Notes: generated from the letters alone by a model not told the origin. Positions 726-34,921 are shown, numbered from the stretch's first letter. The stretch: DNA of 64,000 bases from a virus (IMGVR_UViG_3300029267_003207); one strand, 5' to 3'. Made by a program: numbers and translations.

Positions 726-1114
726 TATTTTTCCTCTGTTTCGTATACACGCAAATCTAAAGACGGTACGCACCCGAGTTTAATAGGTTTAAGCCCCAAC
801 GGAATCGGGATTTTATACATAGGGACATCGTTTTCTTCCAGATAGGAAACAAGCTTCTCAACAACATCCATCAAAAATTCTGAAGTGAAATTTGTCTCAC
901 GCATTTTCTCCCAGACATGTTCTACCACATGGTAAGAACTCAATTTAACCATGCTTAGATCAAGTGAAGCAGAATATTTATCTCCTTCATAAGTTACCTG
1001 AAATGTCATAGCTGGTTTTTCTTCAATCTCAATGATTTTTACAATATTTTTGAATGATTTAACGAGTATCTCAGGTGTTAAATCAGCTTGAGCTATTGCT
1101 TCTCTTAGTGTCAT
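725..1114 (-). CDS. hypothetical protein
   Basis: 129-aa ORF packed tightly in the operon; no motif recognised. Confidence 0.45.
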   Translation of the reverse strand: MTLREAIAQADLTPEILVKSFKNIVKIIEIEEKPAMTFQVTYEGDKYSASLDLSMVKLSSYHVVEHVWEKMRETNFTSEFLMDVVEKLVSYLEENDVPMYKIPIPLGLKPIKLGCVPSLDLRVYETEEK

Positions 1115-3617: not shown

Positions 3618-3760
3618 GTCTCTAACTCCTTATGTTAGTTCTCGTTTCACTGTCGGCCACTGGCAAGTTGCCTGTAACTTTACCAACTCCACGAGCGTTA
3701 ATTTCCGCCAACTCAGCGGTATGTTTTAGATTGATAGCTGCGTTAAGGTCACGATCAATT
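3560..3760 (-). ncRNA. candidate omega-RNA (reRNA) region: tnpB 3' end plus right-end flank
   Basis: Inferred from known TnpB biology, where the guide RNA derives from the tnpB 3' end and right end. The last ~110 nt of tnpB plus ~10 nt downstream are conserved in a second copy at 26262..26375. The exact RNA ends are not determinable from sequence. Confidence 0.3.
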
Positions 3761-5490: not shown

Positions 5491-5505
5491 AATTATTCTC
5501 CAAAG

Positions 5506-5577
5506 AGCCGCTGCTCGGATTTGAACCGAGATATACTGCTTTACAAGAGCAGTGTCTTACCGTTAGACAACAGCGGC
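5506..5577 (-). tRNA. tRNA-Thr (anticodon UGU)
   Basis: The reverse complement folds by hand into a cloverleaf: acceptor GCCGCTG/CAGCGGC, anticodon stem CTGCT/AGCAG with loop CTTGTAA, T-arm CTCGG-TTCAAAT-CCGAG. Confidence 0.7.
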
Positions 5578-15447: not shown

Positions 15448-16266
15448 TTACTTTTTTCCCTCGACAGTTAAATCATACTCAAGTGCTTCGTCACTACTCA
15501 ACCCAATTAAATCAAATAAATGTGAAGTAACCACTTCTCCTTGAACCCACATCAATGCAGCAATCACATGTTTAAGAGCATCAGAAGAATCTCTCTGTAG
15601 TAAATAAGTAACTAATTCACTCGTTCTTTTTTTTCTATCTTTTAATTTATTATCCTCTTCACTAGTCAGTTCCTTGACTCTATCGGCTCTACGTTTCAGA
15701 ATTTTCTTTGCCTCAGAAGTGATTACTGTATCCGGCTTGTTTTTATAGAACCGTATGAGTTTTTTAACTTCTTTTAAAGACAAGTTTCCAGACTCAACCA
15801 TCATTTTAACTTCGTCTGGAAGTAGCAGAAAATCTCTCCTAATAGCCACCCAGTCTTTGCTTCTATTTAGTCTTCGTGCTATTTCTAAAATACTGACATT
15901 GGTTCTTAGAAGCTTATCGACAACTACCGCTTCCTCGCTTATGCTTAGATTTTCTCTGATTAAGTTCTCTGTAAAATTGATCTCTTCTGAATCTTCTCTG
16001 TTTACTGGAGTAACTAATTTTGCAGGGATGGAGTCTCGCTTTAGAAGATATTTAAAGGCAATATACCTTCTAAAACCAGCTAATAGAACATAAGTGGCTT
16101 TTACTCCATCTTGTTTTGTAGCTCTTCGAACAATAACAGGTTGTAGAAGACCGTGCTTCTTTATACTTTCGGCCAGCCCTCTACAAGAAGATGGTGTTAT
16201 TTCAAACCTACAATTGAACATTTGATTAACATGTATCTTGTCCAAAGGGCACTTAAATTGTCTCAT
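15448..16266 (-). CDS. ParB-like nuclease domain protein
   Basis: LLQPVIVRR...YVLLAGFRRYIA matches the ParB/Srx N-terminal domain. Confidence 0.65.
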   Translation of the reverse strand: MRQFKCPLDKIHVNQMFNCRFEITPSSCRGLAESIKKHGLLQPVIVRRATKQDGVKATYVLLAGFRRYIAFKYLLKRDSIPAKLVTPVNREDSEEINFTENLIRENLSISEEAVVVDKLLRTNVSILEIARRLNRSKDWVAIRRDFLLLPDEVKMMVESGNLSLKEVKKLIRFYKNKPDTVITSEAKKILKRRADRVKELTSEEDNKLKDRKKRTSELVTYLLQRDSSDALKHVIAALMWVQGEVVTSHLFDLIGLSSDEALEYDLTVEGKK

Positions 16267-17503
16267 TGTCTACCTCTATTTTGTACCGTTTCGGTCCTTC
16301 TAACTCAGCTTCTTGATCTCTAAGCTTAACAGGAAGTCGCCAAGTTACTCCGTGTTTCTCATTAACTCCGTGTATAAGCTGAATAGGCTCTGACATTTTA
16401 CCTAGAGAATTATAGGCATAAGCATCAGTTGCTACCCAAGCACCATTTACTAACTGCTCCCCATCAACACCACTAATACTAGCTGGTGTATGAAAATGCC
16501 CGCAACAGAAGTATCGATTATTTGGGCGAATATCCTTCTGACGCATTAGAAGTTGGAATCGCTGTTGACGGCGTTCAAGTCCGTACCAAGGAATTCCTAG
16601 ACTGCTTCTGACATCATCGCCATGAGAAAGATTGAACAGATTATTTTCAACCAGTATATTAAAAGTGAAAGTATCCGGAATAAGAAACCCTACGTTTTTC
16701 AAATCTCTACAATGTAACTCAGCTATCTTTGCGATCAAATAATCCCAGTTATCATGTGCGCCATGGTAATCCTTTTTCTTTGATCTACGCCCATGGTTAC
16801 CTGGAACATACACGACATTTATATCTTGAAAATATGTGGATAAGTCACGGTACATAAGAGCATGTAACTCACCAATTGCAAGGCAATTTTTGAATTGGTT
16901 CTTGAACTCACTTCGCGTGACGGCACCATGAATCTCTCCACTTGTGAAATCACCATAGCAAAGAATAGTAAGCTTTGGGAAACTATAGCTGTTAGCTAAA
17001 GTAGTTTGTGTCCACTTCAAAACAGTGTCAACATACTTCTCAGCCCTGCAACAACTCACAGAGAAATCGTGCTTCTCAAGACCACCGCATTCACTAGGAA
17101 CGACAATTTGGTCGTGGTGACCATCAGACATGTGCATAACTAGATGCTCAGTCAGCCGCCCTTTAGGTTTGCTCACAGCCTTCAATGGTGGCGATTCGAA
17201 TGGTTCTATAACATCTACAAGCTCATCTACAATACAATCAAACAAACCTTGTTGCTTTGCTGCTTCCTTCAGCTTCTTTAGAGCTAGATTTCGTTCAAGC
17301 TTTAGATGTAGAATTTCCGTTTTCAGCTTGTCAATTTCTGACGTATCCTCATTTAGGGATATACCGTCAACCAATCCTCGACATACATCTGATATATAAC
17401 TCCTACTGTAACCAAACTCCTCTCCAACTTCTTTTTGAGTTTTGCCTTCAGCTAGTCTTGCTTTAATCTTTAATAATTCTTCTTTGGTCATTTTTTCTCC
17501 CAA
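16253..17503 (-). CDS. HTH domain fused to calcineurin-like metallophosphoesterase
   Basis: N-terminal HTH (KTQKEVGEEFGYSRSYISDV). Phosphoesterase motifs MSDGHHD, CYGDFTSGEIHG, VPGNHG, CCGHFHTP. Confidence 0.6.
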   Translation of the reverse strand: MGEKMTKEELLKIKARLAEGKTQKEVGEEFGYSRSYISDVCRGLVDGISLNEDTSEIDKLKTEILHLKLERNLALKKLKEAAKQQGLFDCIVDELVDVIEPFESPPLKAVSKPKGRLTEHLVMHMSDGHHDQIVVPSECGGLEKHDFSVSCCRAEKYVDTVLKWTQTTLANSYSFPKLTILCYGDFTSGEIHGAVTRSEFKNQFKNCLAIGELHALMYRDLSTYFQDINVVYVPGNHGRRSKKKDYHGAHDNWDYLIAKIAELHCRDLKNVGFLIPDTFTFNILVENNLFNLSHGDDVRSSLGIPWYGLERRQQRFQLLMRQKDIRPNNRYFCCGHFHTPASISGVDGEQLVNGAWVATDAYAYNSLGKMSEPIQLIHGVNEKHGVTWRLPVKLRDQEAELEGPKRYKIEVDNETI

Positions 17504-18096
17504 ATAGGTGTCACTTTTTTACCTGTGTGCAATCGTTTGTGATCTCCCCTAGACAAAAGCATCAAATTTTCAGGTTGGTTATTTTGCCCATTTTCATCAA
17601 TGTGGTGTACTATTTCATTCTCTTTAAGCGGCCTTCCTAACTCTAATGCTACAACAAGTCTATGTTCAAATACTTCTCCTTTATTATTAGCCATGCTAGA
17701 AAAGCATTCAGGGCACTTAACATAAATATAATTAGATACAAAACCACCTTTCCAACTAGGATGTGTGCTTCCTTTCTTCAATTTGTGCCTAATTTTTGAA
17801 GAATTATCCCCTCTCCATATCGAAAGATCAATGCCATTGATTTCATATTCAAGTTGACTCTTCTTATCTGGGAATAAAGCTAAATTGGTAAGGGCGTTAT
17901 TTTTATTGTTTCCATCTAAATGAAAAACGCACTCTTCTTCTTTCAAGGAGCGACAAATTTCAATTGCAACAAGTAGCCTTGATTCCAAAACCCTGCCAGT
18001 GTACTTTACACGTTTAAGCACACTAGGTATCCTATAAAGAGACTTACCACAAACACTGCATACACAATTAGCCTCTCTAGTCATCAGTTGCCTCAA
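17488..18096 (-). CDS. HNH homing endonuclease (duplicated HNH_3-like module)
   Basis: EHRLVVALELGRPLKENEIVHHIDENGQNNQPENL plus a degenerate second copy; zinc ribbon CVCSVCG. Confidence 0.7.
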   Translation of the reverse strand: MRQLMTREANCVCSVCGKSLYRIPSVLKRVKYTGRVLESRLLVAIEICRSLKEEECVFHLDGNNKNNALTNLALFPDKKSQLEYEINGIDLSIWRGDNSSKIRHKLKKGSTHPSWKGGFVSNYIYVKCPECFSSMANNKGEVFEHRLVVALELGRPLKENEIVHHIDENGQNNQPENLMLLSRGDHKRLHTGKKVTPIWEKK

Positions 18097-18238: not shown

Positions 18239-20098
18239 TTATCCATTATATACCTCTCTGATGATAAGGGGTTTACGTTCTTTCTTTACTTCTTCTTGAT
18301 CCCCAAATTCCATCAAGTAATCTATTGCTCTCTCGAACCATAATGGTTCTTCACCAGAGAAGATAGCTTTCTTGATGTCGAGATTCTGAAGATGCTTTTT
18401 CTTTTCTCGCCATTCTCCAGTATTAACGATTTGAGCTAATTTATTTATCCATTCTTCCTCGCTGTATGTATTCCAATCTTCCATGCCGACCCGTCGATTC
18501 AAAACAGTTCCCACTTTAGTTCGGAATGTATCTCCATCGCAATTAAGAAATGGCATATCAAGATATAAAGCTTCAACCAAAGTATTGAAACAACCAAAGT
18601 TACTTGGAGTAGAATTAAGAAGTATGTCCGAGTTCTCTTCCGTGTGTTTCATATAATCAAAGTATTCAAACTCCGACCAAACTTTTGCTTTATCTCCAAA
18701 TATAGCATGGATATCTCGCATGAATGGAAGTACAGCACAATTTCGGTTGATAGAAATGCTAGGATAAAAATGCAACTTGGCCGGTTTCTCAAATTTATCA
18801 ACCGCTTTCTTTAGGTTCATAAGCAGTGGGTAGCAATACTTATCGGGTCCCCAAGTTGCTTGAATTATTACTTCATCGTGGTCCTTGACAATTCCACGTT
18901 TCTGGTAATTTGGATAAGATGCTAGACACCCCATACCCGGAATCAAAACCATCCGCTCGGTGTACTTATCCTGGACCTTAGAAATATCTTCAACTTCTTC
19001 ACCACCAAGGAAGTAATCAATCTTACTTCCAAAGGTACTGGCTGGATGTCCGTAGCTCATAACTTGAATCGGTGCAAGACGCAAATTGCTCATTAGAACA
19101 CTTTCCGGTGTCATTCCAATATCAGCATAGTATAGCATCTTGAAATCATTTTTAGTGATTCCTTCAATTCCGCTGTCTTCAAGATAGATCACGTCGTCGA
19201 AACAATCCGTCATGAGTTCTCTCGGCTTATAGCCAGTATGTATCAATGTCACATGGTACTTTCCAAACAGTCGCTCAATTAATGGTCGAGCACTTTTACA
19301 CACCGCGCTATTAGGAAACCATTTAGAAGTAACAAGGGCGATCTTGTTATCCTTTGGTGTATTTACTATATTAAGATCAATACTTTGACGTTGACAAGCA
19401 TTGTTGATCTTAGGCTTGTGGACAGCGTCGCAGTCTCCATCAATATAGCTTGAACTGAAATAAGTCACATGGCAAGAATCTTCAAACACAGTTAGACGGT
19501 CATCAGTTTCCTGATAAAATCGTTTCATGTTTTTATAGAGAAGCTCACTTGTAGGACTGGCACTAGGAGCCAACGCTGAGATATACCAACGAGAAGCCAA
19601 ACCAGGGTTAATGTCAAAGAACTTACTTATAGGTAACTGAAGCTCATTACGAACAGTGTATAGAAAGCAAACCTTTGGTAAATTATTTTCCTGCGCAAGA
19701 ACAACTTGAAGAACTGCATCTGTCGTCTTGTAAAGCGACATAGCAACCACGTTGGCAAAAATATGGCAATTTGCCGCATAGATTAAAACTCTATCCTTTG
19801 GCACTAGAAAATTTGGATCTGCCATTACTGAAAAAACGGTGGTTACGAACCTGTTCAACAACCTAAGACCGGTTTCGTCTAATCTTCGCAACGTGTTTTC
19901 AGAGTAAAAACGTAGTACTTTTAAAATTGCCTCACTTACAACTCTGTTATCGCCCCTAGAAATAGTTTTAATAATTTCGCGGTGATCCAAAGCTGGAATC
20001 GGGCCGCTATTATCGATCAGCTTGTTCAACTTCAAATTTTCATTTGACTCATGCTTCTTGGCCCACTTGCGATTATGTCGTCTATTCTTTTTGCTCAA
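18239..20098 (-). CDS. GT41-family (O-GlcNAc-transferase-like) glycosyltransferase
   Basis: LRLAPIQVMSYGHPASTFGSKIDYFLGGE parallels the OGT catalytic-domain block (R)PAPIQVSWLGYPGTTGA..MDYIITD. The C-terminus parallels the OGT C-lobe (NCDGDTFRTKVGTVLNRRVGMEDW vs LCNGHTTG..LASRVAASQL). Confidence 0.55.
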   Translation of the reverse strand: MSKKNRRHNRKWAKKHESNENLKLNKLIDNSGPIPALDHREIIKTISRGDNRVVSEAILKVLRFYSENTLRRLDETGLRLLNRFVTTVFSVMADPNFLVPKDRVLIYAANCHIFANVVAMSLYKTTDAVLQVVLAQENNLPKVCFLYTVRNELQLPISKFFDINPGLASRWYISALAPSASPTSELLYKNMKRFYQETDDRLTVFEDSCHVTYFSSSYIDGDCDAVHKPKINNACQRQSIDLNIVNTPKDNKIALVTSKWFPNSAVCKSARPLIERLFGKYHVTLIHTGYKPRELMTDCFDDVIYLEDSGIEGITKNDFKMLYYADIGMTPESVLMSNLRLAPIQVMSYGHPASTFGSKIDYFLGGEEVEDISKVQDKYTERMVLIPGMGCLASYPNYQKRGIVKDHDEVIIQATWGPDKYCYPLLMNLKKAVDKFEKPAKLHFYPSISINRNCAVLPFMRDIHAIFGDKAKVWSEFEYFDYMKHTEENSDILLNSTPSNFGCFNTLVEALYLDMPFLNCDGDTFRTKVGTVLNRRVGMEDWNTYSEEEWINKLAQIVNTGEWREKKKHLQNLDIKKAIFSGEEPLWFERAIDYLMEFGDQEEVKKERKPLIIREVYNG

Positions 20099-20586
20099 AT
20101 TTTCACCTTTTTTCCACTAACTAAAACCTCTGAACCTATATCTTCCAATATTATAAGCTTAATGCCAGCTCTCCTGAGAATTTTATGCCCCAACTCAATT
20201 TGTTTTTTCCATGCTGGCATTGCGTCAATTGCTGCTTTAGAGGTTATAACCTCTTTAATTTCTGCTGCTACTATGGCCTTTGCGCACTCAGTACAACAAG
20301 CTGCCGTGGCTGCTAATCCAACATCGTGTGGGTGACAATTTTTTAAGTATTCGTATAATGCTGCTTGTTCCGCATGAAGCATAATTGGATATTTATCAAA
20401 CTTCTCAAGATCACTAATTTCAAAACCCTTTGAAAGCTTATTAGGCTCAGAGCTAAGAATCTCAAATGTCTCAAGATCATAGACTATGGCACAAATTTGT
20501 GTTCTCGGATCATCGCTGTCATTAGTTCCTAAAGCAGCTTGTCTTAATAACCATTTGTGATCTCTAAAAGTTGAATAATATCTCAT
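20095..20586 (-). CDS. dCMP deaminase
   Basis: Zinc ligand motifs HAEQAA and AACCTECAKAI (PCxxC). Confidence 0.8.
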   Translation of the reverse strand: MRYYSTFRDHKWLLRQAALGTNDSDDPRTQICAIVYDLETFEILSSEPNKLSKGFEISDLEKFDKYPIMLHAEQAALYEYLKNCHPHDVGLAATAACCTECAKAIVAAEIKEVITSKAAIDAMPAWKKQIELGHKILRRAGIKLIILEDIGSEVLVSGKKVKI

Positions 20587-21632
20587 ACTCTTCCCACCAT
20601 ATCATTGCTATAGGTGTATGTGTCTATCCCCCCTAGTTCCTTATAAATATCATTTGCCCTCCAAGGCGTTGTGACAAAGACCTTATCCAGTTTAAGCTCT
20701 TTACGCCCTTTGATTCTCTGGCCTGTTCCAGGCACATACTTTCCAACCTTACGGATGTCCGAATCATAAATCTCACTTGTGTTTGGGGTGAGATGGTTTA
20801 AAAAAGAAGCGCCCTTACCGGCAGCGCCCCAGAAAGCAATTTCACCAGCAATATCGTCAATCTGCTTCTTTAAACTCGCGAAATCAAATCCAGGGCAAAC
20901 TGGTATCTCGTAATGAGTTGGTTTATATCCTTTATCTTTTACACCAATGAATGTGAGAACTGTTCCACAGTTATTGACGAACAAAACTCTCATTCGCAAA
21001 CCAGCATTGCATAATAAAGTTATAAGACTGTTACGTGAGAAATTTTGCGGATGTGCTGGCATGAAATCACAGAACCATTTTCTCTCAAGTGTCTTTTCGA
21101 CATTAGGAACTTCGATAAAGAAAAGAGCATCATCGCCAGCCTCGCCAACTATTTGGTTTATTATTTTTCGAGGTTCTAGAAAATGCTCAAGTGTATGACG
21201 AAGAATAATGGTGTCCGGATTTATCTCACTAATCAAACCGTGTCTTGGGTTAGTTAAAACAGTGTGTCGGTCGGATTTACCGTTGGGGTCTATACAATAA
21301 CCTTTATCTGTTATCAAATCTAAAAACCCACAGTCCCCGCCACCAATATCCAAACACTTCTCACAAGGTGAGAACTCCTTCAAAAGCCCGGCTTGTTTCT
21401 TAACATGTCTGCCCCAGCCACCATTATACATTGGGTACTCTGAATACTCCAAATATATATCTTCTTCATTATAAACATGCTGGCACTTATAGCACATCTT
21501 CATCTCAAGCATGTGCATAGGAACGGATACAGCTTCAATATAACTTTCGGGAAGCTTGGTACAGGCATCTGGTGCTTGACCTGAAAAAATTAGTTTGGTT
21601 CTTGTGCTTCCACAGACTGGACATTCGCGCAT
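20583..21632 (-). CDS. SAM-dependent C-methyltransferase (sugar C-methyltransferase-like, TylC3/Methyltransf_13-14 architecture)
   Basis: N-terminal zinc ribbon CPVCGS...CYKCQ, SAM motif I LDIGGGDCGFL, and a long C-terminal domain as in NDP-sugar C3-methyltransferases. Confidence 0.6.
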   Translation of the reverse strand: MRECPVCGSTRTKLIFSGQAPDACTKLPESYIEAVSVPMHMLEMKMCYKCQHVYNEEDIYLEYSEYPMYNGGWGRHVKKQAGLLKEFSPCEKCLDIGGGDCGFLDLITDKGYCIDPNGKSDRHTVLTNPRHGLISEINPDTIILRHTLEHFLEPRKIINQIVGEAGDDALFFIEVPNVEKTLERKWFCDFMPAHPQNFSRNSLITLLCNAGLRMRVLFVNNCGTVLTFIGVKDKGYKPTHYEIPVCPGFDFASLKKQIDDIAGEIAFWGAAGKGASFLNHLTPNTSEIYDSDIRKVGKYVPGTGQRIKGRKELKLDKVFVTTPWRANDIYKELGGIDTYTYSNDMVGRV

Positions 21633-22103: not shown

Positions 22104-22306
22104 ATTTTCTCCAAAATAAAATGCTTATTTAACTTATAGTCTGTTTGCCAAATGGCTTGTTTAACTAATGAATGGGTAGCTGGAAGACTATTAGATATGG
22201 CGGTAACCACAGTGAAAAAAGAAACTGGTGCATTCTTATCAAGATAGTTTTCTACTGATTTTTGAATAGTTAGTCTATCGAAAACGTAATCTGTTATGCT
22301 GAGCAC
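22100..22306 (-). CDS. hypothetical protein
   Basis: 68-aa ORF. Confidence 0.3.
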   Translation of the reverse strand: MLSITDYVFDRLTIQKSVENYLDKNAPVSFFTVVTAISNSLPATHSLVKQAIWQTDYKLNKHFILEKI

Positions 22307-23118
22307 TTACTACTCCAAATGGGTTTGACTTCTTTGTTTCCGTTTTCAACTTTCATATGATCTGAATGATTCTTGTATAACTCTAAATTATTTATATCGT
22401 CATTTAGATTGTTTCTATCTATATGGTGTACACTTTCCTCTTTTGATAAGGGTCTGCCTAATGCTTTGGCAACAATTAACCTATACCTTGGGACATAACC
22501 ATCAGAATGAGACATTTCTGAAAATTCTTTCGGGCATTTTACTAATACTGCTCGTGTGTGAACTTTATTAGTGAAGCCTTGTTCTATCTTTTCTCTGTAA
22601 AAATCTTTACCTCTCCCGCTCCAAATAGGCTGCGCAGTAAGATTGTTTCTATGAAAAGCTTTATGTGCTGCCCTAGTTTCGAAAAGTTCTAAATTCTCTA
22701 ACCTGTTATCAGTCTTATCTTCATTCACATGGTGTACTGCTTCTTTCTTCAATAAAGGGCGTCCAATTGCCTGAGCAACGATCAATCTATGTTCAGCTAC
22801 TCTACCAGCTTCCGTAGACATGCTCAAATAATCCTTTGGGCATTGTACATATCTATAAGAAACATTTGTCTTCCAACTATGGTGGTTCTTTCCTTTTGGT
22901 TTAACTAATTTCGAGTGTCCTATGCCGACGCACCTGTGGCTACAATACACGTTGTTGAGAATGTTCTTTGGTGTGCGTTCTATTTCTTTGCCACAAATAC
23001 AGCAGTGAACTTTCACTTTTTTACTCTTCAATTTATCTGCGCACACACAACTACAACACACCTGATTTTTACGTCTAGTGGAATACTTTTTATTACACTG
23101 TTTACACACTTTAATCAT
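22294..23118 (-). CDS. HNH homing endonuclease (two HNH_3-like repeats plus zinc finger)
   Basis: AEHRLIVAQAIGRPLLKKEAVHHVNEDKTDNRLENL and RYRLIVAKALGRPLSKEESVHHIDRNNLNDDINNL. N-terminal CKQCNKK..CCSCVC. Confidence 0.7.
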   Translation of the reverse strand: MIKVCKQCNKKYSTRRKNQVCCSCVCADKLKSKKVKVHCCICGKEIERTPKNILNNVYCSHRCVGIGHSKLVKPKGKNHHSWKTNVSYRYVQCPKDYLSMSTEAGRVAEHRLIVAQAIGRPLLKKEAVHHVNEDKTDNRLENLELFETRAAHKAFHRNNLTAQPIWSGRGKDFYREKIEQGFTNKVHTRAVLVKCPKEFSEMSHSDGYVPRYRLIVAKALGRPLSKEESVHHIDRNNLNDDINNLELYKNHSDHMKVENGNKEVKPIWSSKCSA

Positions 23119-26578: not shown

Positions 26579-27271
26579 TTAACGCTCACGTCCGCGAGTA
26601 TCTTCCTCTGTATCGTCCGGACTGAGGAATTTTGTCACACGCTTTATGACTTCTTCGACAGATGGTTCAGTCGTGAACGGGGCCTTGCACTCCTTTACAA
26701 CGGACACATGCCAGCTTCCCTTCTTATTCTTGGCGTATCGAACACCTAGCGTTGCAGGAATAGGTCCATGTGGATCAGTTCCCTGTTGCTCGGCTGCTTC
26801 AGCGTTGAGCGGCAAATACGGATAAAGAGTCGGGCCAATTTTACGAGCAGATTTATTACAGAAGAACATCTCGTAAAACTGACACGTAGTCCGCTCATAG
26901 ACCAGGAAAGAGGGGCCATAGAGGCACCCCATTTCTCCCTTATCGCCGCGAGATACGATGTCCTTATATTCCTCCGAGTGCATATCAGTGCTGACAACAA
27001 CATTCTCAGAATCAGTAACATCCATAGCCTTAGCCCTCATGGCAAAGACAAGAATATCAATCTCATCACCTAGGTCAACAATTTCGTCCCCTGCTTGAGG
27101 AATGCCATAATGACCAGGAGCAACGGCTCCGGTATCAATGAATCGTCCTTTTGTATACAGTTGAATACGCCCAAGAAAATCTCCAACCTTGGAAATTTGC
27201 TGTAGTTCAGAAGGCGAAACAGTCGTACAGGGAAGAGAGGTGTAATCGTTCTTAACAAGTTCGTTACTCAT
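26579..27271 (-). CDS. hypothetical protein
   Basis: 230-aa ORF with no recognised motif. Two hairpins follow its 3' end (26490..26575). Confidence 0.45.
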   Translation of the reverse strand: MSNELVKNDYTSLPCTTVSPSELQQISKVGDFLGRIQLYTKGRFIDTGAVAPGHYGIPQAGDEIVDLGDEIDILVFAMRAKAMDVTDSENVVVSTDMHSEEYKDIVSRGDKGEMGCLYGPSFLVYERTTCQFYEMFFCNKSARKIGPTLYPYLPLNAEAAEQQGTDPHGPIPATLGVRYAKNKKGSWHVSVVKECKAPFTTEPSVEEVIKRVTKFLSPDDTEEDTRGRER

Positions 27272-28136
27272 AAGTTTTCCTTTTTCTAAGTTTTCCCTTA
27301 TTTAGGTTTTCTTTTTTTCTAGCTAGGGATTTTTTCACTTTTTCAACATACTCTTTTTGAGAGACACTATCTTGATGTGTCACCCAGTCTAGTGCCTTGT
27401 TCCAAATGTCTTCAGGTGTATCTTCGTCTAAAATTAGAAGTCGGCCCGCGACTCCAGTTTCACGTTCACGTAAAATTTGACGGAGTGATCTTAGTGAGGG
27501 CTTTAACTTGAATTCAGTTTGGATTTTTTCATTAGTTTCAAATAGCAGGGCTTCGCTAATTAGTTTTAGTTTGCGATCTACATAACTTTGAAATTCTTGT
27601 GTGCTATATTCTAAGCAGAAATCGACACACTCTTTTTGAACCTCAACGGGTAATTTAGCCATTGCCAATTGAGATTTTAGTGATGTTTTACTTATACGCT
27701 CGGCTACCTCCTCGTCTAGTCTGTTTAAAGAAAGAATTTTACGTACCCAATCTACTGGCTTTGATATTGCTGAAGCGAGACGATATAAGTCAAGAGATGG
27801 GTCTTTTAACAAAAGCAATTTTAAGTGTTTGGCGAATTCATATTTACTTGTAGGAATAAAAGAAGAGTTCATTTTTATCTGCATTATCAAGCAGTCAGAG
27901 TCCGTAAGATCAAGCACCTTACATGGAACCTCCTTTAAATTAAGTTGTACGGCACACTCTAGTCGGTGCATTCCGTCAACTAATTCGAACCGGGCTCCTT
28001 TTTTCCTGACGATTAAATCTTGCAAAATACCGCTGTCCTTGATAGAATCCCTTAGGGCAAGAAAATCTATGCTCCAAGTTTTCACTGGGCGAAGAAGAAC
28101 TTTAGGTTGGTCTATCAATTTGCGGTCAATGTTCAT
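27264..28136 (-). CDS. ParB-like nuclease domain protein (second paralogue)
   Basis: KKGARFELVDGMHRLECA matches the ParB N-terminal core (GxRxxxVDGxHR). Confidence 0.6.
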   Translation of the reverse strand: MNIDRKLIDQPKVLLRPVKTWSIDFLALRDSIKDSGILQDLIVRKKGARFELVDGMHRLECAVQLNLKEVPCKVLDLTDSDCLIMQIKMNSSFIPTSKYEFAKHLKLLLLKDPSLDLYRLASAISKPVDWVRKILSLNRLDEEVAERISKTSLKSQLAMAKLPVEVQKECVDFCLEYSTQEFQSYVDRKLKLISEALLFETNEKIQTEFKLKPSLRSLRQILRERETGVAGRLLILDEDTPEDIWNKALDWVTHQDSVSQKEYVEKVKKSLARKKENLNKGKLRKRKTYE

Positions 28137-28723: not shown

Positions 28724-31438
28724 TTGTTAAAAATTCGCGAAGCTGTTGCTAATTTTTTGAGAAATACTGCTGACCAGAATAAGACTCTAGTTAGCTGGTG
28801 GCACCCTGAACTTGAAACCCAGGTTCAAGTTCTAAGTAATACTGGTGAGAAAACTGACTTTGGCGGATTCACCAAAGATGGCGACACTTGGTGGCATATT
28901 CGTTGGCCTAAAAATGGAAAGACTACTCCTACTTGGAAGCCTAAGACTCAAACATTTGATCTCTCTAAGTACGCTGAATCTATTGGGACATCTGGGTGGA
29001 ATTGGGAAGACCACACAAGCGAATTTGTGTGCTTTGATCTGGATAGTGTCGAAAACCACGCAGAAGGACTCTCAGATTCAGAGCTTAATGAATTCATAGA
29101 AAAGGGCGCAGCCTGTGATTATGTAGATGTTTTCTCTTCCACTAGTGGGAAAGGTATTCATTATTATGTTCGCTTTGACCCTGAAAGTTTACCGCCGTCT
29201 GCCAATAGAGTTGAACACAAGACAGTAGCTCATTATGTTCTTAGTAAGCTGAAGCAGGATATAGGCGATAATCTAATAGCTAAACTTGATGTCTGCGGTA
29301 ACATTTTCTGGATTTGGTCCAGAAGAATGACAGATAAAAGCTACCAACATCTTAGCTCCGCAACACGTTTACTCCGATATGATGAAGATTTTGTCGACGG
29401 CTGGAAAGAAAAAGCTGAGGTGGTGAAAACTCCGTACACCACAAAGAGAATCATAACCTCTTATTTCGGTTCTGCCAATCTCAGTAAAGAGCATACAAAA
29501 ATTGCCAATGCTCTTTCTAAAAGCGGCTATAGTTTTGCATATGACCAGTCTGAAAAACGTATAACAACCCATACAAAAGCGCTGCAAGAATTATCTAAGA
29601 GTATGGATAATTTCGTAGGGGCCTTCACTACAAAATCAACCGGAGCGGACACAAAGCAGAATTGTTTCATGTTTCCAGTGGATAATGGCGGGTTCACTGT
29701 TTTTCGTTTTGGCAATGTTAAAGAAGATTTTCCATGGAAGGAATCTAAAAACAAAAACTGCTATTGTATGTTCAACAGTCCTATGGACCCAGTTGAGACC
29801 TTTCTACACTTTAATTTAGAGCATCAACCCAAACATAGTTCCAGGAAGGAGAGATTCTGCGCTGATTGTTTTGAGTCTCTTATCGATGCTCTTAAATTTC
29901 TGGGCTGTGACCATTTCCTAGATGAAAGTATTAAGGAGTTTGTAGACAAGTTTTATATTGAATTGGTTCCTACCACTTCTGATTCACTGAAAATTTGTGT
30001 TGATTCACAATATAAGGAAGCGATTAAAAATCGTGGATTTCAGGAATACTCAAGAGGGCATTTCAAATCTAAGGTTTTGAAATACAAACACAACAGATTT
30101 GGTGTCTATAAAGATAATAAAAAGGATCGCGACGCTCTCCTCAAAGATGATCAAATTATTGAAGTTGAAGGCTTGGAACATATAGCTAGGCACACAAAAC
30201 AACAGGCCATTTATGGAGTAGACTCAACTCAAGAGGGTCAATGGTGGGTTGGCTCAGATATTCCTGGAGAAGGACATAGATTTTGTAGAGTTAGAGGTGA
30301 TAATGATGTTGTAAAAGTTCTACAGTCAGAATATCCAGGAATGTCTGTAGAAACCGCTAAGATTATTTGCGGGGATTTGATAAAAAATCCATGGCTCATA
30401 ACTTGTGTACCATTTCAACCTGAGTATAGCAGAGCTAAGCAGTGGAATATGAGTGCCCCAAAGTTAGTTTTTAAGCCAGCCAATTTGGATGATTGTGAGC
30501 AAGCAACCCATCCTACTTGGGATAAGATTTTTTCGCATTGTGGTCAAGAGCTAGATGAAGTTTTAAAAGACCAACCATGGTATGGTCGCTGGGGACTCCA
30601 TACAGGTAAAGAATATCTAACAGCTTGGACTGCTTGTATGCTATTCGAACCAGACAAAAAACTACCGTATCTATTTCTTCATGGCAACCAAGAGACAGGA
30701 AAATCTTCTTTTCACGAAGCCATACGTCTTTTGATACAGGGAGGTGTTGAAGAGGGGTCGCGGCCCTTAACCAACACAAGCTCTTTCAATGGGCAACTAG
30801 AAGGAACTGTTTTAGTATATATCGAGGAAATAGATTTGTCAAGAAAAAAGCAACAGCAGAATATAGCGTATGAAAGGATCAAGGACTGGACAGTTAGCCC
30901 TTATCTATCTCTAAGGCACATGTATCGACCACCATATTTTGTCAAAAACTATTTGCATTTTGTTCAGGTTGCCAATCAAGTTAGTGCTTGCCCTATTGAT
31001 CAAGATGATACCAGAGTGACAGCTTTATTGGTTCCACCGATAGAAGGAGAAAAGATTCCCACAAATACGCGTGATCAAAGGTTACGAGATGAGGCGCCGA
31101 ATTTTATGGTCACATTAAAACGAGCGCATCGGCGTCTTCCTCCTATGGAAGGAAGGCTAAGGATACCTGTTGTTAAGACCCAGAGTAAATGTCAAGTTAT
31201 TGAGACATTAAGTAATGAACTAATGACTTTTGTTCGTGAAAACTGTCTGGAAAAAAGAACTAAATACACGTCTTTTGGTACATTTTATACTAAGTTCATG
31301 GAGAAATCTCCTTCTGATGTTCATGAGGGTTCTTGGTCTACTAGTAAGGTGAAACGAGAACTTTTAAATAATCATATTGCTGTTGAAGGCTCTGGCAATT
31401 CAGCAACTATTAAAGGTTTAATTTTGAAAGAGGAATAA
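28724..31438 (+). CDS. DNA primase-helicase (AEP/PrimPol domain plus D5-like SF3 helicase); probable TTG start
   Basis: AEP motifs VCFDLDSV and SSTSGKGIHYYV. SF3 helicase Walker A LFLHGNQETGKSS and Walker B TVLVYIEEID. TTG at 28724 sits 7 nt after AAGGAG, whereas the ORF-track ATG at 28616 lies upstream of the promoter. Confidence 0.75.
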   Translation: MLKIREAVANFLRNTADQNKTLVSWWHPELETQVQVLSNTGEKTDFGGFTKDGDTWWHIRWPKNGKTTPTWKPKTQTFDLSKYAESIGTSGWNWEDHTSEFVCFDLDSVENHAEGLSDSELNEFIEKGAACDYVDVFSSTSGKGIHYYVRFDPESLPPSANRVEHKTVAHYVLSKLKQDIGDNLIAKLDVCGNIFWIWSRRMTDKSYQHLSSATRLLRYDEDFVDGWKEKAEVVKTPYTTKRIITSYFGSANLSKEHTKIANALSKSGYSFAYDQSEKRITTHTKALQELSKSMDNFVGAFTTKSTGADTKQNCFMFPVDNGGFTVFRFGNVKEDFPWKESKNKNCYCMFNSPMDPVETFLHFNLEHQPKHSSRKERFCADCFESLIDALKFLGCDHFLDESIKEFVDKFYIELVPTTSDSLKICVDSQYKEAIKNRGFQEYSRGHFKSKVLKYKHNRFGVYKDNKKDRDALLKDDQIIEVEGLEHIARHTKQQAIYGVDSTQEGQWWVGSDIPGEGHRFCRVRGDNDVVKVLQSEYPGMSVETAKIICGDLIKNPWLITCVPFQPEYSRAKQWNMSAPKLVFKPANLDDCEQATHPTWDKIFSHCGQELDEVLKDQPWYGRWGLHTGKEYLTAWTACMLFEPDKKLPYLFLHGNQETGKSSFHEAIRLLIQGGVEEGSRPLTNTSSFNGQLEGTVLVYIEEIDLSRKKQQQNIAYERIKDWTVSPYLSLRHMYRPPYFVKNYLHFVQVANQVSACPIDQDDTRVTALLVPPIEGEKIPTNTRDQRLRDEAPNFMVTLKRAHRRLPPMEGRLRIPVVKTQSKCQVIETLSNELMTFVRENCLEKRTKYTSFGTFYTKFMEKSPSDVHEGSWSTSKVKRELLNNHIAVEGSGNSATIKGLILKEE

Positions 31439-31830
31439 TGTTAAAAGATTCAGGAACACGACGTGAATTCACAAATGGAGCTGTGCGAGACGCACAAGAG
31501 GGTAAAGGTCGTTTCGACTTACTACCTTGGGATTCTTTGTGGGAACTTTCAAAGGTTTTCGAAAAGGGCGCTAATAAATATTCAGCCAGAAACTGGGAGA
31601 AAGGTATAAATTACTCCGCGTTCTTAGATTCAGGAATACGTCATTTGGTCAAATTTCAATTAGGTTGGGTAGATGAACCACATCTAGCTATGGCAGCTTG
31701 GAATATTCTTTGTCTATTGACAACAGCTATTAGAGTGAATAAAGGTACGCTTCCTCCTGAGTTAGCTGATCTACCTTTTGCTAAGTTTATCAGCGTGTCT
31801 GAATTGGAGTTAGATAATGAAGTTTCCTGA
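31438..31830 (+). CDS. putative nucleotide pyrophosphohydrolase-like protein (dATP/dGTP diphosphohydrolase N-domain-like)
   Basis: GKGRFDLLPW...LSKVFEKGANKYSARNWEKG resembles, from memory, the phage dATP/dGTP diphosphohydrolase N-terminal family. Confidence 0.35.
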   Translation: MLKDSGTRREFTNGAVRDAQEGKGRFDLLPWDSLWELSKVFEKGANKYSARNWEKGINYSAFLDSGIRHLVKFQLGWVDEPHLAMAAWNILCLLTTAIRVNKGTLPPELADLPFAKFISVSELELDNEVS

Positions 31831-33902: not shown

Positions 33903-34379
33903 ATGAATTTACGTGAGTATTTAAGCAAAAATTTTGTAAAAGAAGCTGGTGTAACTTATGAAGGTGCTAGTACCTATCTGTCAACTTATTCAGCTTATGA
34001 AATAACTAATAAAGTCCCTAACCTTAGCCAGTCACAATATTATTACTTGTTTCTGCGCCTATTCTCAACTCCATTGCGAATTAAGAAGAGCAGATTATTT
34101 GGTGACGAGGTTGTAATTGGTGTCTTTTTAAATAATGTAGACAAGCTCGTTGAGTCTATTGATAAGTGCCCAACCGATCTTTTGGAGTTTGTAAGTTGGC
34201 ACGTTAAGGAACTTGGTATCGCTACGTTTGATATTGAGTCAGCAGAAATTATAACATCTGAGCCTTGTGCTAGGAATTTTCCAACAGCATTGAAAATTAG
34301 AACTGTTGGAAACTCGGTTCTTGTTTCCGGCGACAAAAATCACAATAGTAAGTATATTCTTGCTCTACCTAAAGCTTAA
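33903..34379 (+). CDS. hypothetical protein
   Basis: 158-aa ORF. It is convergent with the SPFH gene, and their stop codons overlap. Confidence 0.4.
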   Translation: MNLREYLSKNFVKEAGVTYEGASTYLSTYSAYEITNKVPNLSQSQYYYLFLRLFSTPLRIKKSRLFGDEVVIGVFLNNVDKLVESIDKCPTDLLEFVSWHVKELGIATFDIESAEIITSEPCARNFPTALKIRTVGNSVLVSGDKNHNSKYILALPKA

Positions 34380-34921
34380 TCTTCCCCCACTGAGAAACCA
34401 CCTTCTGTAAATATTTTCAACATTTTGCAGGTAGTGAAGTCAGTAAAAGCGGCTCTTTGGACTAATAGTCCAAAGGGCCGCAATTCTTTTCGGCACTCTT
34501 CCGTGAGTTCCTTTTCGACCGCATCGCAGAGGTTTTTTAGTAAATATTCTAAAGGCCATTTTGAAACAATTCTTACGATGGCCGCTTGCGTTATATCTCC
34601 AATAGTTGTGTCGACATCCCAGTTCTTTTCACCATAAGCTAGAACTGCGTTATTTATTCTATAGACTACTACCCCACTAACAGTTACTTGCTTATGATCC
34701 AAAGTAAGTAGTGACTGAGAGGACGGATTTACCGTCTGGCGGGCCACAACAACCATTTCGACTTCTGATACCAATGGCCAGTATACATGCAGTCCTGGGG
34801 CCATCTCGACCGCTGTATGGCCTCTACGCCACTTAATTCCCCTATGAGTAGCCCTAACAATTAGTAACCGAGGAATTACCGATAAAACAGCCTGAAAAAT
34901 TTGGGATAAAAGGTCAAACAT
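34376..34921 (-). CDS. SPFH/band-7 domain protein
   Basis: HVYWPL..VVVARQTVN..LTLDHKQVTVSGVVVYRINNAVLAY..IGDITQAAIVRIVSKWPLEYLL follows the SPFH pattern (VDA.V.YRI.DP.KA...LAQ..LR). Confidence 0.55.
   Translation of the reverse strand: MFDLLSQIFQAVLSVIPRLLIVRATHRGIKWRRGHTAVEMAPGLHVYWPLVSEVEMVVVARQTVNPSSQSLLTLDHKQVTVSGVVVYRINNAVLAYGEKNWDVDTTIGDITQAAIVRIVSKWPLEYLLKNLCDAVEKELTEECRKELRPFGLLVQRAAFTDFTTCKMLKIFTEGGFSVGED

What the first reader, a model, noticed from the sequence alone, without database searches (positions are those of the whole stretch)
18239..21632. Phage-encoded GT41 (OGT-like) glycosyltransferase next to a sugar C-methyltransferase-like enzyme
The 619-aa protein matches the catalytic core of O-GlcNAc-transferase-family (GT41) enzymes, which are protein glycosyltransferases. 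Two genes downstream is a TylC3-type SAM-dependent C-methyltransferase with an N-terminal zinc ribbon, normally acting on NDP-deoxysugars. A dCMP deaminase lies between them and HNH endonucleases flank the cluster. This could be a virion-protein glycosylation module, since several structural proteins here are very S/T/N-rich, or a DNA or nucleotide sugar-modification module. No accompanying NDP-sugar pathway is present in the window.
Basis: partly seen in the sequence, partly recalled or inferred. Interest (0 to 1): 0.7.

Follow-up and report, generated by a model that had tools for sequence, protein, structure and literature searches.

The report
Phage sugar-methylase plus NGT-like glycosyltransferase pair
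An uncultured long-tailed phage carries a conserved two-gene unit, a nucleotide-sugar C-methyltransferase and a soluble glycosyltransferase built like bacterial adhesin N-glycosyltransferases; the same pair sits in flagellin-glycosylation loci of planctomycete bacteria, so it most likely puts a methylated sugar on a protein, but the target is unknown.

Summary
The three genes are present as described, on the minus strand with 4-nt overlaps, and HNH genes flank them.

**The glycosyltransferase.** The 619-aa protein has the HMW1C/NGT architecture: an all-alpha domain plus a GT41-type GT-B domain. It does not have the TPR architecture of OGT.
- The AF2 model (pLDDT 92) matches AaNGT and ApNGT at TM 0.75-0.77, against about 0.5 for OGT and SPY.
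- The family profile matches ApNGT at E 8.5e-85.
- Donor-site residues are invariant across the family.
- The two residues NGTs use to read the N-X-S/T sequon (R177, D215) are absent. It is an NGT-like sister family whose acceptor is unknown.

**The methyltransferase.** The 349-aa protein is a three-domain NDP-hexose C-methyltransferase of the MtmC/TcaB9/KijD1 type (TMq 0.8).

**The pair.** MT and GT form a coupled module.
- They are adjacent in 35 related viral loci and both absent in 14, with no mixed cases. This reflects only about 2-4 evolutionary events.
- The same pair lies in Thermoguttaceae flagellar-filament loci.
- The deaminase is a passenger specific to this sub-lineage, and the HNH genes are mobile.

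**Function.** Protein glycosylation with a C-methylated sugar made from a host NDP-ketosugar is the best reading. DNA modification is not supported, and the sequon enrichment in structural proteins is a compositional artefact.

This is a new variant of known kinds and is moderately interesting.

The parts
20583..21632 (-). 349-aa SAM-dependent NDP-hexose C-methyltransferase-like enzyme (MtmC/TcaB9/KijD1/TylC3 type). It has an N-terminal Cys4 zinc ribbon (C4, C7, C47, C50), a class-I SAM domain, and a C-terminal nucleotide-binding domain. It is the first gene of the unit.
   Evidence: Pfam Methyltransf_23 at 8.5e-11; Methyltransf_14 at 0.0019, sub-threshold. Family profile against PDB: MtmC 3.5e-38, TcaB9 6.9e-31, KijD1 4.9e-28, all full length. 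AF2 model pLDDT 90.6. In Foldseek the top 18 hits are all these C3-MTs at TMq 0.76-0.81; the next hits are generic MTs at TMq 0.38. The TcaB9 H181 and H225 equivalents (H150, H194) are invariant; the E224 equivalent is Ala in this phage.
20095..20586 (-). 163-aa dCMP/CMP-type zinc deaminase (HAE...CxxC), translationally coupled between MT and GT. It is probably a nucleotide-supply passenger and not part of the glycosylation chemistry.
   Evidence: PF00383 at 2.3e-8 and phrog_174 dCMP deaminase at 4.7e-11. PDB 7fh4 at 2.9e-9. It lies between MT and GT only in this phage and its 66%-identity relatives L170 and L171. It is absent from that position in all other module-bearing loci, and homologues lie 8-9 kb away in L011, L024 and others.
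18239..20098 (-). [quoted passage not shown] The donor site is intact and the NGT sequon-reading residues are absent.
   Evidence: phmmer against PDB NGTs at about 1e-14. NCBIfam NGTferase at 71 bits, cutoff 1000. Family profile against ApNGT at 8.5e-85 over the full length; OGT, SPY and XcOGT at about 1e-20 over the catalytic part only. AF2 model pLDDT 91.9. Foldseek against AaNGT and ApNGT gives TM 0.75-0.77; OGT and SPY give 0.48-0.57. G350-H351-P352, K420, N505 and E509 are conserved, while R177 maps to P178 and D215 to V211.
20095..20098 (-). TTGA overlap: deaminase stop and GT TTG start, with an AAGGTG Shine-Dalgarno-like motif 6-7 nt upstream.
   Evidence: Read directly from the sequence.
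20583..20586 (-). ATGA overlap: MT stop and deaminase start.
   Evidence: Read directly from the sequence.
17488..18096 (-). Flanking HNH_3 homing-type endonuclease (202 aa, two HNH_3 stretches). A neighbour, not part of the module.
   Evidence: PF13392 at 1.9e-16 and several HNH PHROGs. Absent next to the module in L170, L171 and the other clade loci.
22294..23118 (-). Flanking HNH_3 homing-type endonuclease (274 aa, two HNH_3 stretches). A neighbour, not part of the module.
   Evidence: PF13392 at 5.5e-16. Not conserved in relatives.

Best explanation
This is a two-enzyme accessory module for glycosylating a macromolecule, most likely a protein. It is carried in the early/replication gene array of a siphovirus-like phage.

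**Step 1 (inferred from homology).** The MT is a three-domain NDP-hexose C-methyltransferase. It takes an NDP-4-keto(-6-deoxy)hexose from the host's own deoxysugar pathway, because the phage encodes no sugar pathway of its own. It adds a C-methyl branch using SAM.

**Step 2 (fold and donor site shown; donor and acceptor inferred).** The GT is a soluble, metal-independent, inverting GT41-type enzyme with the HMW1C/NGT all-alpha plus GT-B architecture. It transfers that sugar, or a related nucleotide sugar, onto a protein in the cytoplasm of the infected cell. It lacks the Arg177/Asp215 pair that NGTs use to read N-X-S/T, so its acceptor motif differs from that of classical NGTs. The linkage could be to Ser/Thr or to Asn.

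**Acceptor.** By analogy with the bacterial MT+GT pairs in flagellin/FliD loci, the acceptor is a surface-exposed filament or virion protein. That means either a phage structural protein or the host's flagellin.

**Neighbours.** The dCMP deaminase wedged between the two genes is ordinary dTTP-supply metabolism, alongside the window's dUTPase and NT5C nucleotidase. The flanking HNH genes are mobile endonucleases.
For: **GT identity**
- Searches show full-length NGT homology and fold.
- Invariant GHP, K420 (ApNGT K441 / OGT K842 position), N505 and E/D509 show an intact nucleotide-sugar site.

**MT identity**
- establish it. Both catalytic His residues are invariant.

**Coupling of MT and GT**
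- The MT is directly upstream on the same strand, with a gap of -151 to +110 bp, in every module-bearing clade locus.
- The only exception is this sub-lineage, where the deaminase is inserted with 4-nt overlaps.
- Of 49 clade loci found through the neighbouring exonuclease, 35 have both genes, 14 have neither, and none is mixed. The one inferred loss (L113) removed both genes.
- The MTs beside GT homologues are full-length orthologues.
- The same pair occurs independently in bacterial loci L006/7, L008/45, L033 and L037, next to flagellin, FliD, FliS, FliW and CsrA.
- It also occurs inside a complete sugar-biosynthesis cluster (DegT, epimerase/dehydratase, NeuB, TPP enzyme, rSAM) on the phage-like contig L009.

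**Protein or glycan context**
- Further GT-only loci abut giant flagellins (L029-L031, L034, L035).
- Family members are fused to Methyltransf_23, GT4/GT1, sulfotransferase and GT14 branching domains.
- GT41 enzymes in enterobacterial flagellin glycosylation islands are nearly always fused to SAM-MT domains (PMC4875605).

**No sugar pathway or DNA-hypermodification genes in the window**
-.
Against: - No acceptor has been identified.
- No gene within +-10 kb co-varies with the module.
- The sequon and S/T enrichment in structural proteins is non-directional.
- The module lies in the replication gene array, not with the structural genes.
- C-methyltransferases of this type need a 4-keto sugar, and a ketoreductase usually follows. 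None is present, so the donor chemistry is speculative.
- The E224 equivalent of TcaB9 is Ala in this phage's MT.
- Most bacterial family members are stand-alone genes in unrelated contexts without the MT, so the family's acceptor may not be uniform.
- The sister relationship of phage GTs to flagellar-locus GTs has only 42% bootstrap support.
- The co-occurrence statistic rests on about 2-4 evolutionary events.
Confidence: 0.55

Rival explanations
1. Host-directed version. The module glycosylates the host's flagellin, or another surface filament such as a pilin, during infection or lysogeny. This would change a phage receptor, giving superinfection exclusion or keeping progeny from being trapped on cell debris. 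Phage virion proteins would not be the target.
For: Every bacterial MT+GT pair on an untruncated locus lies in a flagellar-filament locus. The NJ tree places the main phage GT clade next to the flagellar-locus GTs. The module sits among early/replication genes, not late genes. No phage gene co-varies with it.
Against: Bootstrap support for the sister relationship is weak, at 42/100. The host is unknown. No integrase or lysogeny module was seen in the ORFs scanned. Re-decorating an already assembled filament within a lytic cycle would be slow. The two nearest bacterial relatives (L082, L085) are not in flagellar contexts.
Confidence: 0.22
2. Classical NGT reading. The enzyme is a true cytoplasmic N-glycosyltransferase that glucosylates Asn in N-X-S/T sequons of virion proteins, for example the sequon-rich 659-aa protein at 43066-45045.
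For: The closest solved structures and the NCBIfam model are NGTs. The 659-aa ORF has 20 sequons against 8.5 expected, in a recurring N-[LI]-[ST]-D motif.
Against: AaNGT Arg177 and Asp215 are essential for reading the +2 Ser/Thr and are conserved among NGTs (PMC10507012). Here they are Pro178 and Val211, and no family member has Arg at the R177 position. The NGTferase score is 71 bits against a cutoff of 1000. The reversed motif S/T-x-N is equally enriched: 18 against 8.7 in the 659-aa ORF, and z 5.4 against 3.7 across the structural proteins.
Confidence: 0.08
3. DNA or nucleotide hypermodification. MT, deaminase and GT together modify phage DNA bases or nucleotide precursors to evade restriction.
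For: The unit is located in the replication/nucleotide-metabolism array with a dCMP deaminase translationally coupled inside it, and that arrangement is kept in the sub-lineage. Phage DNA GTs with GT-B folds exist (bioRxiv 10.1101/2023.12.21.572611).
Against: The window has no thymidylate-synthase-like hydroxymethylase, 5mYOX/TET or C5-cytosine MT. Known phage DNA GTs are GT-A or T4 beta-GT-like, not GT41. The MT is an NDP-sugar C-MT by fold, not a DNA MT. The deaminase is absent from the module in all other clade members. Bacterial homologues sit in flagellin loci and are fused to glycan-tailoring enzymes. About 11 kb of the 75-kb contig lies outside the window and was not examined.
Confidence: 0.07
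4. Non-protein acceptor. The GT decorates a cell-envelope glycan, lipid or small molecule with a methylated sugar, in a seroconversion-like change to the host surface.
For: Fusions to GT4/GT1, sulfotransferase and GT14 and the sugar-cluster context in L009 would also fit polysaccharide building. The NGT peptide-reading residues are missing.
Against: All characterised enzymes with this all-alpha plus GT41 architecture act on proteins. The protein is predicted to be soluble, with no membrane segment seen in the model. Aromatic residues in the acceptor groove (Y213, F214, Y218, equivalent to ApNGT Y217, M218, Y222) are conserved.
Confidence: 0.08

Closest known systems
HMW1C-like cytoplasmic N-glycosyltransferases (H. 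influenzae HMW1C, ApNGT, AaNGT; CAZy GT41)
   Same: The length is the same (about 620 aa). The two-domain architecture is the same: an all-alpha domain plus GT-B. Homology runs over the full length (profile E 8.5e-85, TM 0.75-0.77). The GHP motif and the K441, N521 and D525 donor-site positions are conserved.
   Different: Identity is only about 17%. The sequon-reading Arg177 and Asp215 (and usually His214) are absent, and positions H277, Q469 and H495 differ. It is encoded by a phage and paired with a sugar C-methyltransferase instead of an adhesin and its secretion partner. It scores far below the NGTferase equivalog cutoff.
Flagellin glycosylation islands with GT41 plus methyltransferase (Enterobacteriaceae FGIs, PMC4875605; Thermoguttaceae loci found here)
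   Same: A GT41-type GT is associated with a SAM methyltransferase. The planctomycete loci carry orthologues of both phage genes next to flagellin, FliD and FliS.
   Different: The phage has no flagellar genes and none of the rSAM/SPASM or sulfotransferase partners. The enterobacterial enzymes are GT-MT fusions described as SPINDLY-type (COG3914). None of these systems has been characterised biochemically.
NDP-hexose C-3-methyltransferases MtmC, TcaB9, KijD1 and TylC3
   Same: The three-domain fold matches (zinc ribbon, SAM domain, nucleotide-binding domain) at TMq about 0.8. Both active-site His residues are conserved.
   Different: It is about 60-70 residues shorter, with 15-18% identity. 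The E224 equivalent is Ala in this phage. It is not embedded in an antibiotic deoxysugar pathway, and no dehydratase, aminotransferase or ketoreductase accompanies it.
Mycobacteriophage virion glycosylation (Freeman et al. 2023, Cell Host Microbe; cited in PMC12582341; details from my own knowledge)
   Same: Phage-encoded glycosyltransferases, with methyltransferases in some clusters, decorate proteins using host nucleotide sugars.
   Different: Those are not GT41/NGT-like enzymes. Their genes lie next to the structural genes, and their acceptors (capsid and tail-tube C-terminal S/T tracts) are known. Here the acceptor is unknown and the module lies in the replication array.
Phage DNA glycosylation (T4 alpha/beta-GT; 5mYOX- or ThyS-associated GTs, bioRxiv 10.1101/2023.12.21.572611)
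   Same: A phage-encoded GT-B-fold enzyme lies near nucleotide-metabolism genes.
   Different: The GT family is different. The window has no hydroxymethyl-pyrimidine-generating enzyme, and the MT is a sugar C-MT, not a DNA C5-MT.
O-GlcNAc transferase / SPINDLY / XcOGT (TPR-containing GT41)
   Same: It shares the GT41 catalytic GT-B core and the catalytic Lys (profile E about 1e-20).
   Different: It has no TPR domain. The overall TM is only 0.48-0.57. The N-terminal domain has the HMW1C all-alpha fold.

Membership tests
CAZy GT41 / HMW1C-like NGT | GT-B catalytic domain with the GT41 donor-site signature (GHP motif and the Lys441, Asn521 and Asp525 positions of ApNGT) | tested here: met
   G350-H351-P352, K420 and N505 are invariant in 32 family members. 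E509 is E or D in all of them.
CAZy GT41 / HMW1C-like NGT | [quoted passage not shown] | tested here: met
   Profile positions 28-575 align to ApNGT 19-612 at E 8.5e-85. Foldseek TM is 0.75-0.77 over about 620 columns. Pfam HMW1C_N gives only a weak hit (0.054).
CAZy GT41 / HMW1C-like NGT | Sequon (N-X-S/T) recognition residues Arg177 and Asp215 (plus His214) of the AAD, which are essential and conserved among NGTs (PMC10507012) | tested here: not met
   R177 maps to P178; across the family this position is A, P or G and never R. D215 maps to V211; the family has V, E, L or G. H214 maps to H210; the family has S, Q, H or A.
CAZy GT41 / HMW1C-like NGT | Curated model thresholds (Pfam PF13844 gathering score; NCBIfam NGTferase equivalog) | tested here: not met
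   PF13844 scores 13.5 bits against a cutoff of 25 for the window protein, although most relatives pass it. NF049992 scores 71 bits against a cutoff of 1000.
CAZy GT41 / HMW1C-like NGT | UDP-Glc:protein Asn N-beta-glucosyltransferase activity | not testable with these tools
   Needs an enzyme assay or glycoproteomics.
O-GlcNAc transferase (OGT/SPY type) | N-terminal TPR superhelix preceding the GT41 catalytic domain | tested here: not met
   No TPR hits were found. The N-terminal domain aligns to the HMW1C AAD. TM to OGT and SPY is 0.48-0.57.
NDP-hexose C-methyltransferase (TylC3/TcaB9/MtmC/KijD1) | N-terminal Cys4 zinc-binding domain | tested here: met
   C4-x2-C7 and C47-x2-C50 are present. 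C47 and C50 are nearly invariant in A4, and C4, C47 and C50 are invariant in A1. This region aligns to MtmC and TcaB9 residues 11-60. Pfam Methyltransf_13 itself was not hit.
NDP-hexose C-methyltransferase (TylC3/TcaB9/MtmC/KijD1) | Class-I SAM-binding domain plus C-terminal nucleotide-sugar-binding domain (Methyltransf_14) | tested here: met
   Methyltransf_23 scores 8.5e-11. Methyltransf_14 is sub-threshold in this protein (18.4 against 23.5) but is present in relatives. The full-length profile match to MtmC is 3.5e-38 and the fold TMq is 0.76-0.81.
NDP-hexose C-methyltransferase (TylC3/TcaB9/MtmC/KijD1) | Active-site residues probed in TcaB9 (H181, E224, H225, Y222, Y76) | tested here: inconclusive
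   H181 maps to H150 and H225 to H194, and both are invariant. E224 maps to A193 here, though it is E in most of the family. Y222 maps to M191. Y76 lies in a loop that could not be aligned. The residue roles are from my own knowledge and from the PDB entry titles.
NDP-hexose C-methyltransferase (TylC3/TcaB9/MtmC/KijD1) | C-methylation of an NDP-4-keto-hexose | not testable with these tools
   Needs an enzyme assay.
Phage DNA sugar-hypermodification systems | An enzyme that makes the hydroxymethyl-pyrimidine acceptor (ThyS-like hydroxymethylase, or C5-MT plus 5mYOX), encoded with the GT | tested here: not met
   No such enzyme was found among the window ORFs scanned. About 11 kb of the contig outside the window was not seen.
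dCMP/CMP deaminase (for the middle gene) | H(C)AE and PCxxC zinc-binding motifs; PF00383 | tested here: met
   LHAEQ and CCTEC motifs are present. PF00383 scores 34.3 bits against a cutoff of 25. PDB 7fh4 scores 2.9e-9.

The most novel reading that the evidence does not exclude
A clade of uncultured tailed phages encodes a self-contained cytoplasmic protein-glycosylation system. It diverts a host NDP-4-keto-deoxysugar intermediate, C-methylates it, and attaches the branched-chain sugar to a protein. The transferase would be the first characterised member of a large NGT-like GT41 sister family (hundreds of 50%-identity clusters in Planctomycetota, Cyanobacteria, Verrucomicrobiota and phages). 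That family has lost the N-X-S/T reading residues and so has a new acceptor code. The target would be either virion proteins or the host flagellum, which would make it a phage-borne copy of a flagellin-glycosylation core.
Probability: 0.3. Interest if true: 0.75.

Novelty: new variant of a known kind. Interest (0 to 1): 0.55.

Why it matters
Soluble NGTs are valued glyco-engineering tools, and only the HMW1C/ApNGT/AaNGT type is understood. This finding points to a large, uncharacterised sister family. It has at least 150 full-length representatives at E<1e-139, and 3,509 representatives at E<=1e-30. The fold and donor site are the same as in NGTs, but the acceptor-reading surface is different. 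A C-methyltransferase partner implies an unusual branched-sugar donor.

Phage-encoded protein glycosylation is so far documented mainly in actinobacteriophages, with unrelated enzymes. A second, mechanistically distinct system would broaden the picture of how phages decorate proteins. This matters more because it is shared with planctomycete flagellin loci. It would also provide a compact two-gene cassette that can be tested directly in E. coli.

Tried and rejected
1. **N-X-S/T sequon enrichment as a pointer to the acceptor.** Structural proteins show 121 sequons against 88.8 expected, and the 659-aa ORF shows 20 against 8.5. The reversed motif S/T-x-N is as enriched or more so (134 against 89.2; 18 against 8.7). 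I rejected the signal as compositional patchiness.
2. **Relatives of the 659-aa protein in viral contigs.** None were found.
3. **Comparing structural modules of module-positive and module-negative phages through the MCP.** The 13 MCP relatives lie on contigs that do not overlap the scored set, so the comparison could not be made.
4. **A third gene that co-varies with the module within +-10 kb.** None exists. A trypsin-like peptidase occupies the slot in 6 of 14 module-less loci.
5. **Fisher test on the 35/0/0/14 table (p 1.5e-12).** I discounted it, because module presence needs only 2-4 changes on the exonuclease tree.
6. **GT phylogeny.** The phage clade is sister to the flagellar-locus GTs in NJ, but support is only 42/100, so I treat it as suggestive.
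7. **GenBank phage records.** They contain no DNA or GT protein match, and only remote MT matches at 21-24% identity.
8. **BFVD.** It contains no NGT-like viral structure.
9. **Promoter and terminator scan.** Hits are at chance level.
10. **L082 and L085, which nest within the phage GT clade.** They turned out to be genuine gammaproteobacterial chromosome contigs, not misbinned phage. They give no clear host assignment.
11. **Host identification.** I did not pursue it.

Full report
**Observation.**

- MT, 20583-21632 (349 aa).
- Deaminase, 20095-20586 (163 aa).
- GT, 18239-20098 (619 aa, TTG start).
- HNH_3 genes at 17488-18096 and 22294-23118.

The junctions read gtATGAga (MT stop / deaminase start) and atTTGAgc (deaminase stop / GT start). 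An AAGGTG motif lies upstream of the GT start. The three genes are therefore translationally coupled. Consensus promoter and terminator hits in the region are at chance level.

The window is a phage. It encodes:
- a major head protein, portal and scaffold;
- a tape-measure protein;
- PolA, ParB, an exonuclease and an SNF2 helicase;
- a primase (DUF5906) and an RNA ligase;
- a DNA ligase, PhoH, dUTPase and NT5C nucleotidase.

It has no relative in GenBank phage records. The same genome occurs on JGI metagenome contigs of up to 75 kb.

**The glycosyltransferase.**

Pfam alone gives only sub-threshold Glyco_transf_41 and HMW1C_N hits. Stronger evidence is consistent:
- phmmer against PDB sequences finds the HMW1C-like N-glycosyltransferases AaNGT and ApNGT at about 1e-14, with OGT far behind.
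- NCBIfam's only hit is NGTferase at 71 bits, well below the equivalog cutoff of 1000.
- A profile of 32 family members aligns to ApNGT over essentially its whole length (E 8.5e-85, 288 bits).
- SPY, XcOGT and OGT match only the catalytic half, at about 1e-20.
- The AF2 model is confident (pLDDT 91.9, pTM 0.88).
- It superposes on AaNGT and ApNGT at TM 0.75-0.77 over about 620 columns, against 0.48-0.57 for OGT and SPY.

So the architecture is an all-alpha domain plus a GT41-type GT-B domain. It is not TPR-OGT.

I added ApNGT (residues 9-602, reconstructed) to the family alignment to compare functional positions.
- Conserved: the GHP motif, the K441 equivalent (K420) and the N521 equivalent (N505) are invariant. 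The D525 equivalent is always E or D.
- Not conserved: the AaNGT structural study (PMC10507012) shows that Arg177 and Asp215 of the all-alpha domain read the +2 Ser/Thr of the sequon. Both are essential and conserved among NGTs.
- In this family those positions are Pro/Ala/Gly (never Arg) and Val/Glu/Leu/Gly.

The enzyme therefore keeps NGT donor chemistry but not the NGT acceptor code.

**The methyltransferase.**

- Methyltransf_23 is significant and Methyltransf_14 is just sub-threshold.
- The family profile matches MtmC (3.5e-38), TcaB9 (6.9e-31) and KijD1 (4.9e-28) over all three domains.
- The AF2 model (pLDDT 90.6) has these NDP-hexose C-3-methyltransferases as its top 18 Foldseek hits (TMq 0.76-0.81, E 1e-20 to 1e-24).
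- Generic class-I MTs follow twelve orders of magnitude lower, at TMq 0.38.
- The CxxC...CxxC zinc ribbon is present.
- The equivalents of TcaB9 H181 and H225 are invariant.
- The E224 equivalent is Glu in most of the family but Ala in this phage.

**What belongs together.**

Context of GT homologues shows MT+GT as the unit.
- In distant phage relatives (GT about 35% identical) an orthologous MT (about 31% identical, full length) lies immediately upstream on the same strand. The gap is -151 to +110 bp with no gene between.
- Using the conserved neighbouring exonuclease as an independent handle, I recovered 49 informative clade loci. Of these, 35 have both genes, 14 have neither, and none has only one.

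This table is not many independent events. On an exonuclease tree, module presence needs only two changes (2-4 in bootstraps): a gain at the base of a subclade, and one later loss that removed both genes. What the table does show:
- Both genes have been retained side by side through deep divergence. GT and MT are at 30-38% identity where the exonuclease is at 50-58%.
- They were lost together.

Independent support comes from bacteria.
- In Thermoguttaceae and related MAGs the orthologous MT and GT lie together beside giant flagellins, FliW, CsrA, FliD and FliS, with radical-SAM/SPASM or sulfotransferase genes.
- Five further loci have the GT next to a giant flagellin.
- On the phage-like contig L009 the GT heads a full sugar pathway that includes the MT.

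The deaminase sits between MT and GT only in this phage and its 66%-identical relatives L170 and L171. Elsewhere in the clade, deaminase homologues lie 8-9 kb away. Together with the window's dUTPase and NT5C nucleotidase, it looks like ordinary dTTP-supply metabolism. The HNH genes are absent from L170, L171 and the other loci, and are mobile elements.

**What it probably does.**

The phage encodes no NDP-sugar pathway. A C-methyltransferase of this type acts on NDP-4-keto-hexoses (established knowledge for TylC3, TcaB9, MtmC and KijD1).

The most economical model has three parts:
1. The MT taps a host deoxysugar intermediate such as dTDP-4-keto-6-deoxyglucose.
2. It methylates that intermediate.
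3. The GT transfers the product to a protein.

A protein acceptor is favoured for three reasons:
- Every characterised enzyme of this architecture glycosylates proteins.
- The bacterial pairs sit in flagellar-filament loci.
- Family members are fused to other glycan-tailoring enzymes: Methyltransf_23, GT4/GT1, sulfotransferase and GT14.

GT41 enzymes in enterobacterial flagellin islands are likewise nearly always fused to SAM-MT domains (PMC4875605).

These steps are inferred and not shown: the donor identity, whether a reduction step occurs, the linkage type and the acceptor.

**Acceptor search.**

- Structural proteins are S/T/N-rich. One of them (43066-45045) has 20 sequons in a recurring N-[LI]-[ST]-D motif.
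- The reversed motif is equally or more enriched, so the signal is compositional.
- No gene within +-10 kb tracks the module.
- Attempts to compare the structural modules of module-positive and module-negative phages failed for lack of overlapping contigs.
- An NJ tree puts the main phage GT clade next to the flagellar-locus GTs, but with only 42% bootstrap support.

The target could be virion proteins or the host's flagellin, and I cannot discriminate between them.

**DNA-modification rival.**

- The window has no hydroxymethylase, 5mYOX or C5-MT.
- Known phage DNA GTs are GT-A or T4 beta-GT-like.
- The MT is a sugar C-MT by fold.

I rate this rival as unlikely. About 11 kb of the contig lies outside the window and was not examined.

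**Novelty.**

- GenBank phages have no GT homologue and only remote MT matches.
- No BFVD viral structure resembles the GT beyond a generic GT-B fold.
- The literature search found GT41 in phages only as items in virome CAZy tallies.
- The exhaustive representative search shows the family is large. There are 3,509 representatives at E<=1e-30, a count that will include true NGTs and some OGT-type enzymes. At least 150 score E<1e-139 over the full length.
- In genomes the family occurs mainly in Planctomycetota, Cyanobacteria and Verrucomicrobiota MAGs.

I classify the finding as a new variant of known kinds: an NGT-fold enzyme with a different acceptor surface, coupled to a sugar C-methyltransferase and carried by phages.

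Noticed in passing
window 3622-4767 (-), with tRNA-Thr at 5505-5577 (-): A TnpB / IS605 OrfB gene (OrfB_IS605, Cas12f1-like TNB and HTH_OrfB_IS605 domains) sits inside the phage genome, close to a tRNA gene. I did not look for a possible omega-RNA, transposon ends or copies in a host genome. Such copies could help identify the host.
   Followed up: no
window 31438-31830 (+): This ORF has a dGTP_diPhyd_N domain (PF18909, E 3.9e-21), the N-terminal domain of dATP/dGTP diphosphohydrolases linked to 2-aminoadenine (Z-genome) phages. No PurZ-sized candidate was seen among the ORFs scanned in the window.
   Followed up: no
window 1083-2459 (-): A 458-aa protein fuses a PAPS-reductase domain to a C-terminal HTH_17 domain. 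A PD-(D/E)XK nuclease gene follows at 2459-3415. L009 also has PAPS_reduct and PDDEXK genes near its GT.
   Followed up: no
window 43066-45045 (-): A 659-aa structural-region protein has no Pfam or PHROG hit. It carries a recurring motif of the form (T/S)D(S/T)L-N-[LI]-[ST]-D, present in the N-terminal 330 residues and again at 510-615. It is probably a fibre or repeat protein. It has no close relative in IMG/VR.
   Followed up: partly
window 34376-34921 (-): An SPFH/Band_7 domain protein (E 1.5e-17) lies at the boundary between the plus-strand block and the structural module.
   Followed up: no
window 15448-16266 (-) and 27264-28136 (-): The window encodes two separate ParB_N-domain proteins. 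There is also a plus-strand gene block at about 28.6-34.4 kb, with a GC-skew sign change and a divergent intergenic region at about 28.15-28.6 kb.
   Followed up: no
window 17488-18096 (-) and 22294-23118 (-): Each of the two flanking HNH endonucleases contains two HNH_3 stretches, and both hit the same PHROGs. They are probably paralogous homing endonucleases. The SNF2 helicase is split into two ORFs in L001 but is intact in L002 and in the window.
   Followed up: partly
L005 935-3898; cluster c7 in L012: Related phages carry intein-like insertions in replication genes. The SNF2 helicase of L005 (987 aa) has a LAGLIDADG_3 hit. The primase-like protein in L012 has a long insert that also looks intein-like.
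   Followed up: no
L020 8155-11638; L144 4927-8825; L008 10001-13659; L036: Some phages and bacteria carry two or three tandem paralogues of the NGT-like GT after a single MT. This suggests either sequential sugar additions or more than one acceptor specificity.
   Followed up: partly
L006, L029, L030, L031, L034, L035 (Thermoguttaceae / Pirellulales MAGs): Giant flagellins of 900-1100 aa lie next to the GT. In L006, L029 and L030 a radical-SAM/SPASM gene sits directly upstream of it, and L006 also has FliW and CsrA. L008 adds three sulfotransferases. These appear to be undescribed flagellin-modification islands in Planctomycetota.
   Followed up: partly
L148 9008-9934 and five other module-less clade loci: In 6 of the 14 clade phages that lack MT+GT, a trypsin-like peptidase (PF13365) sits immediately upstream of the exonuclease, in the slot the module occupies elsewhere.
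   Followed up: no
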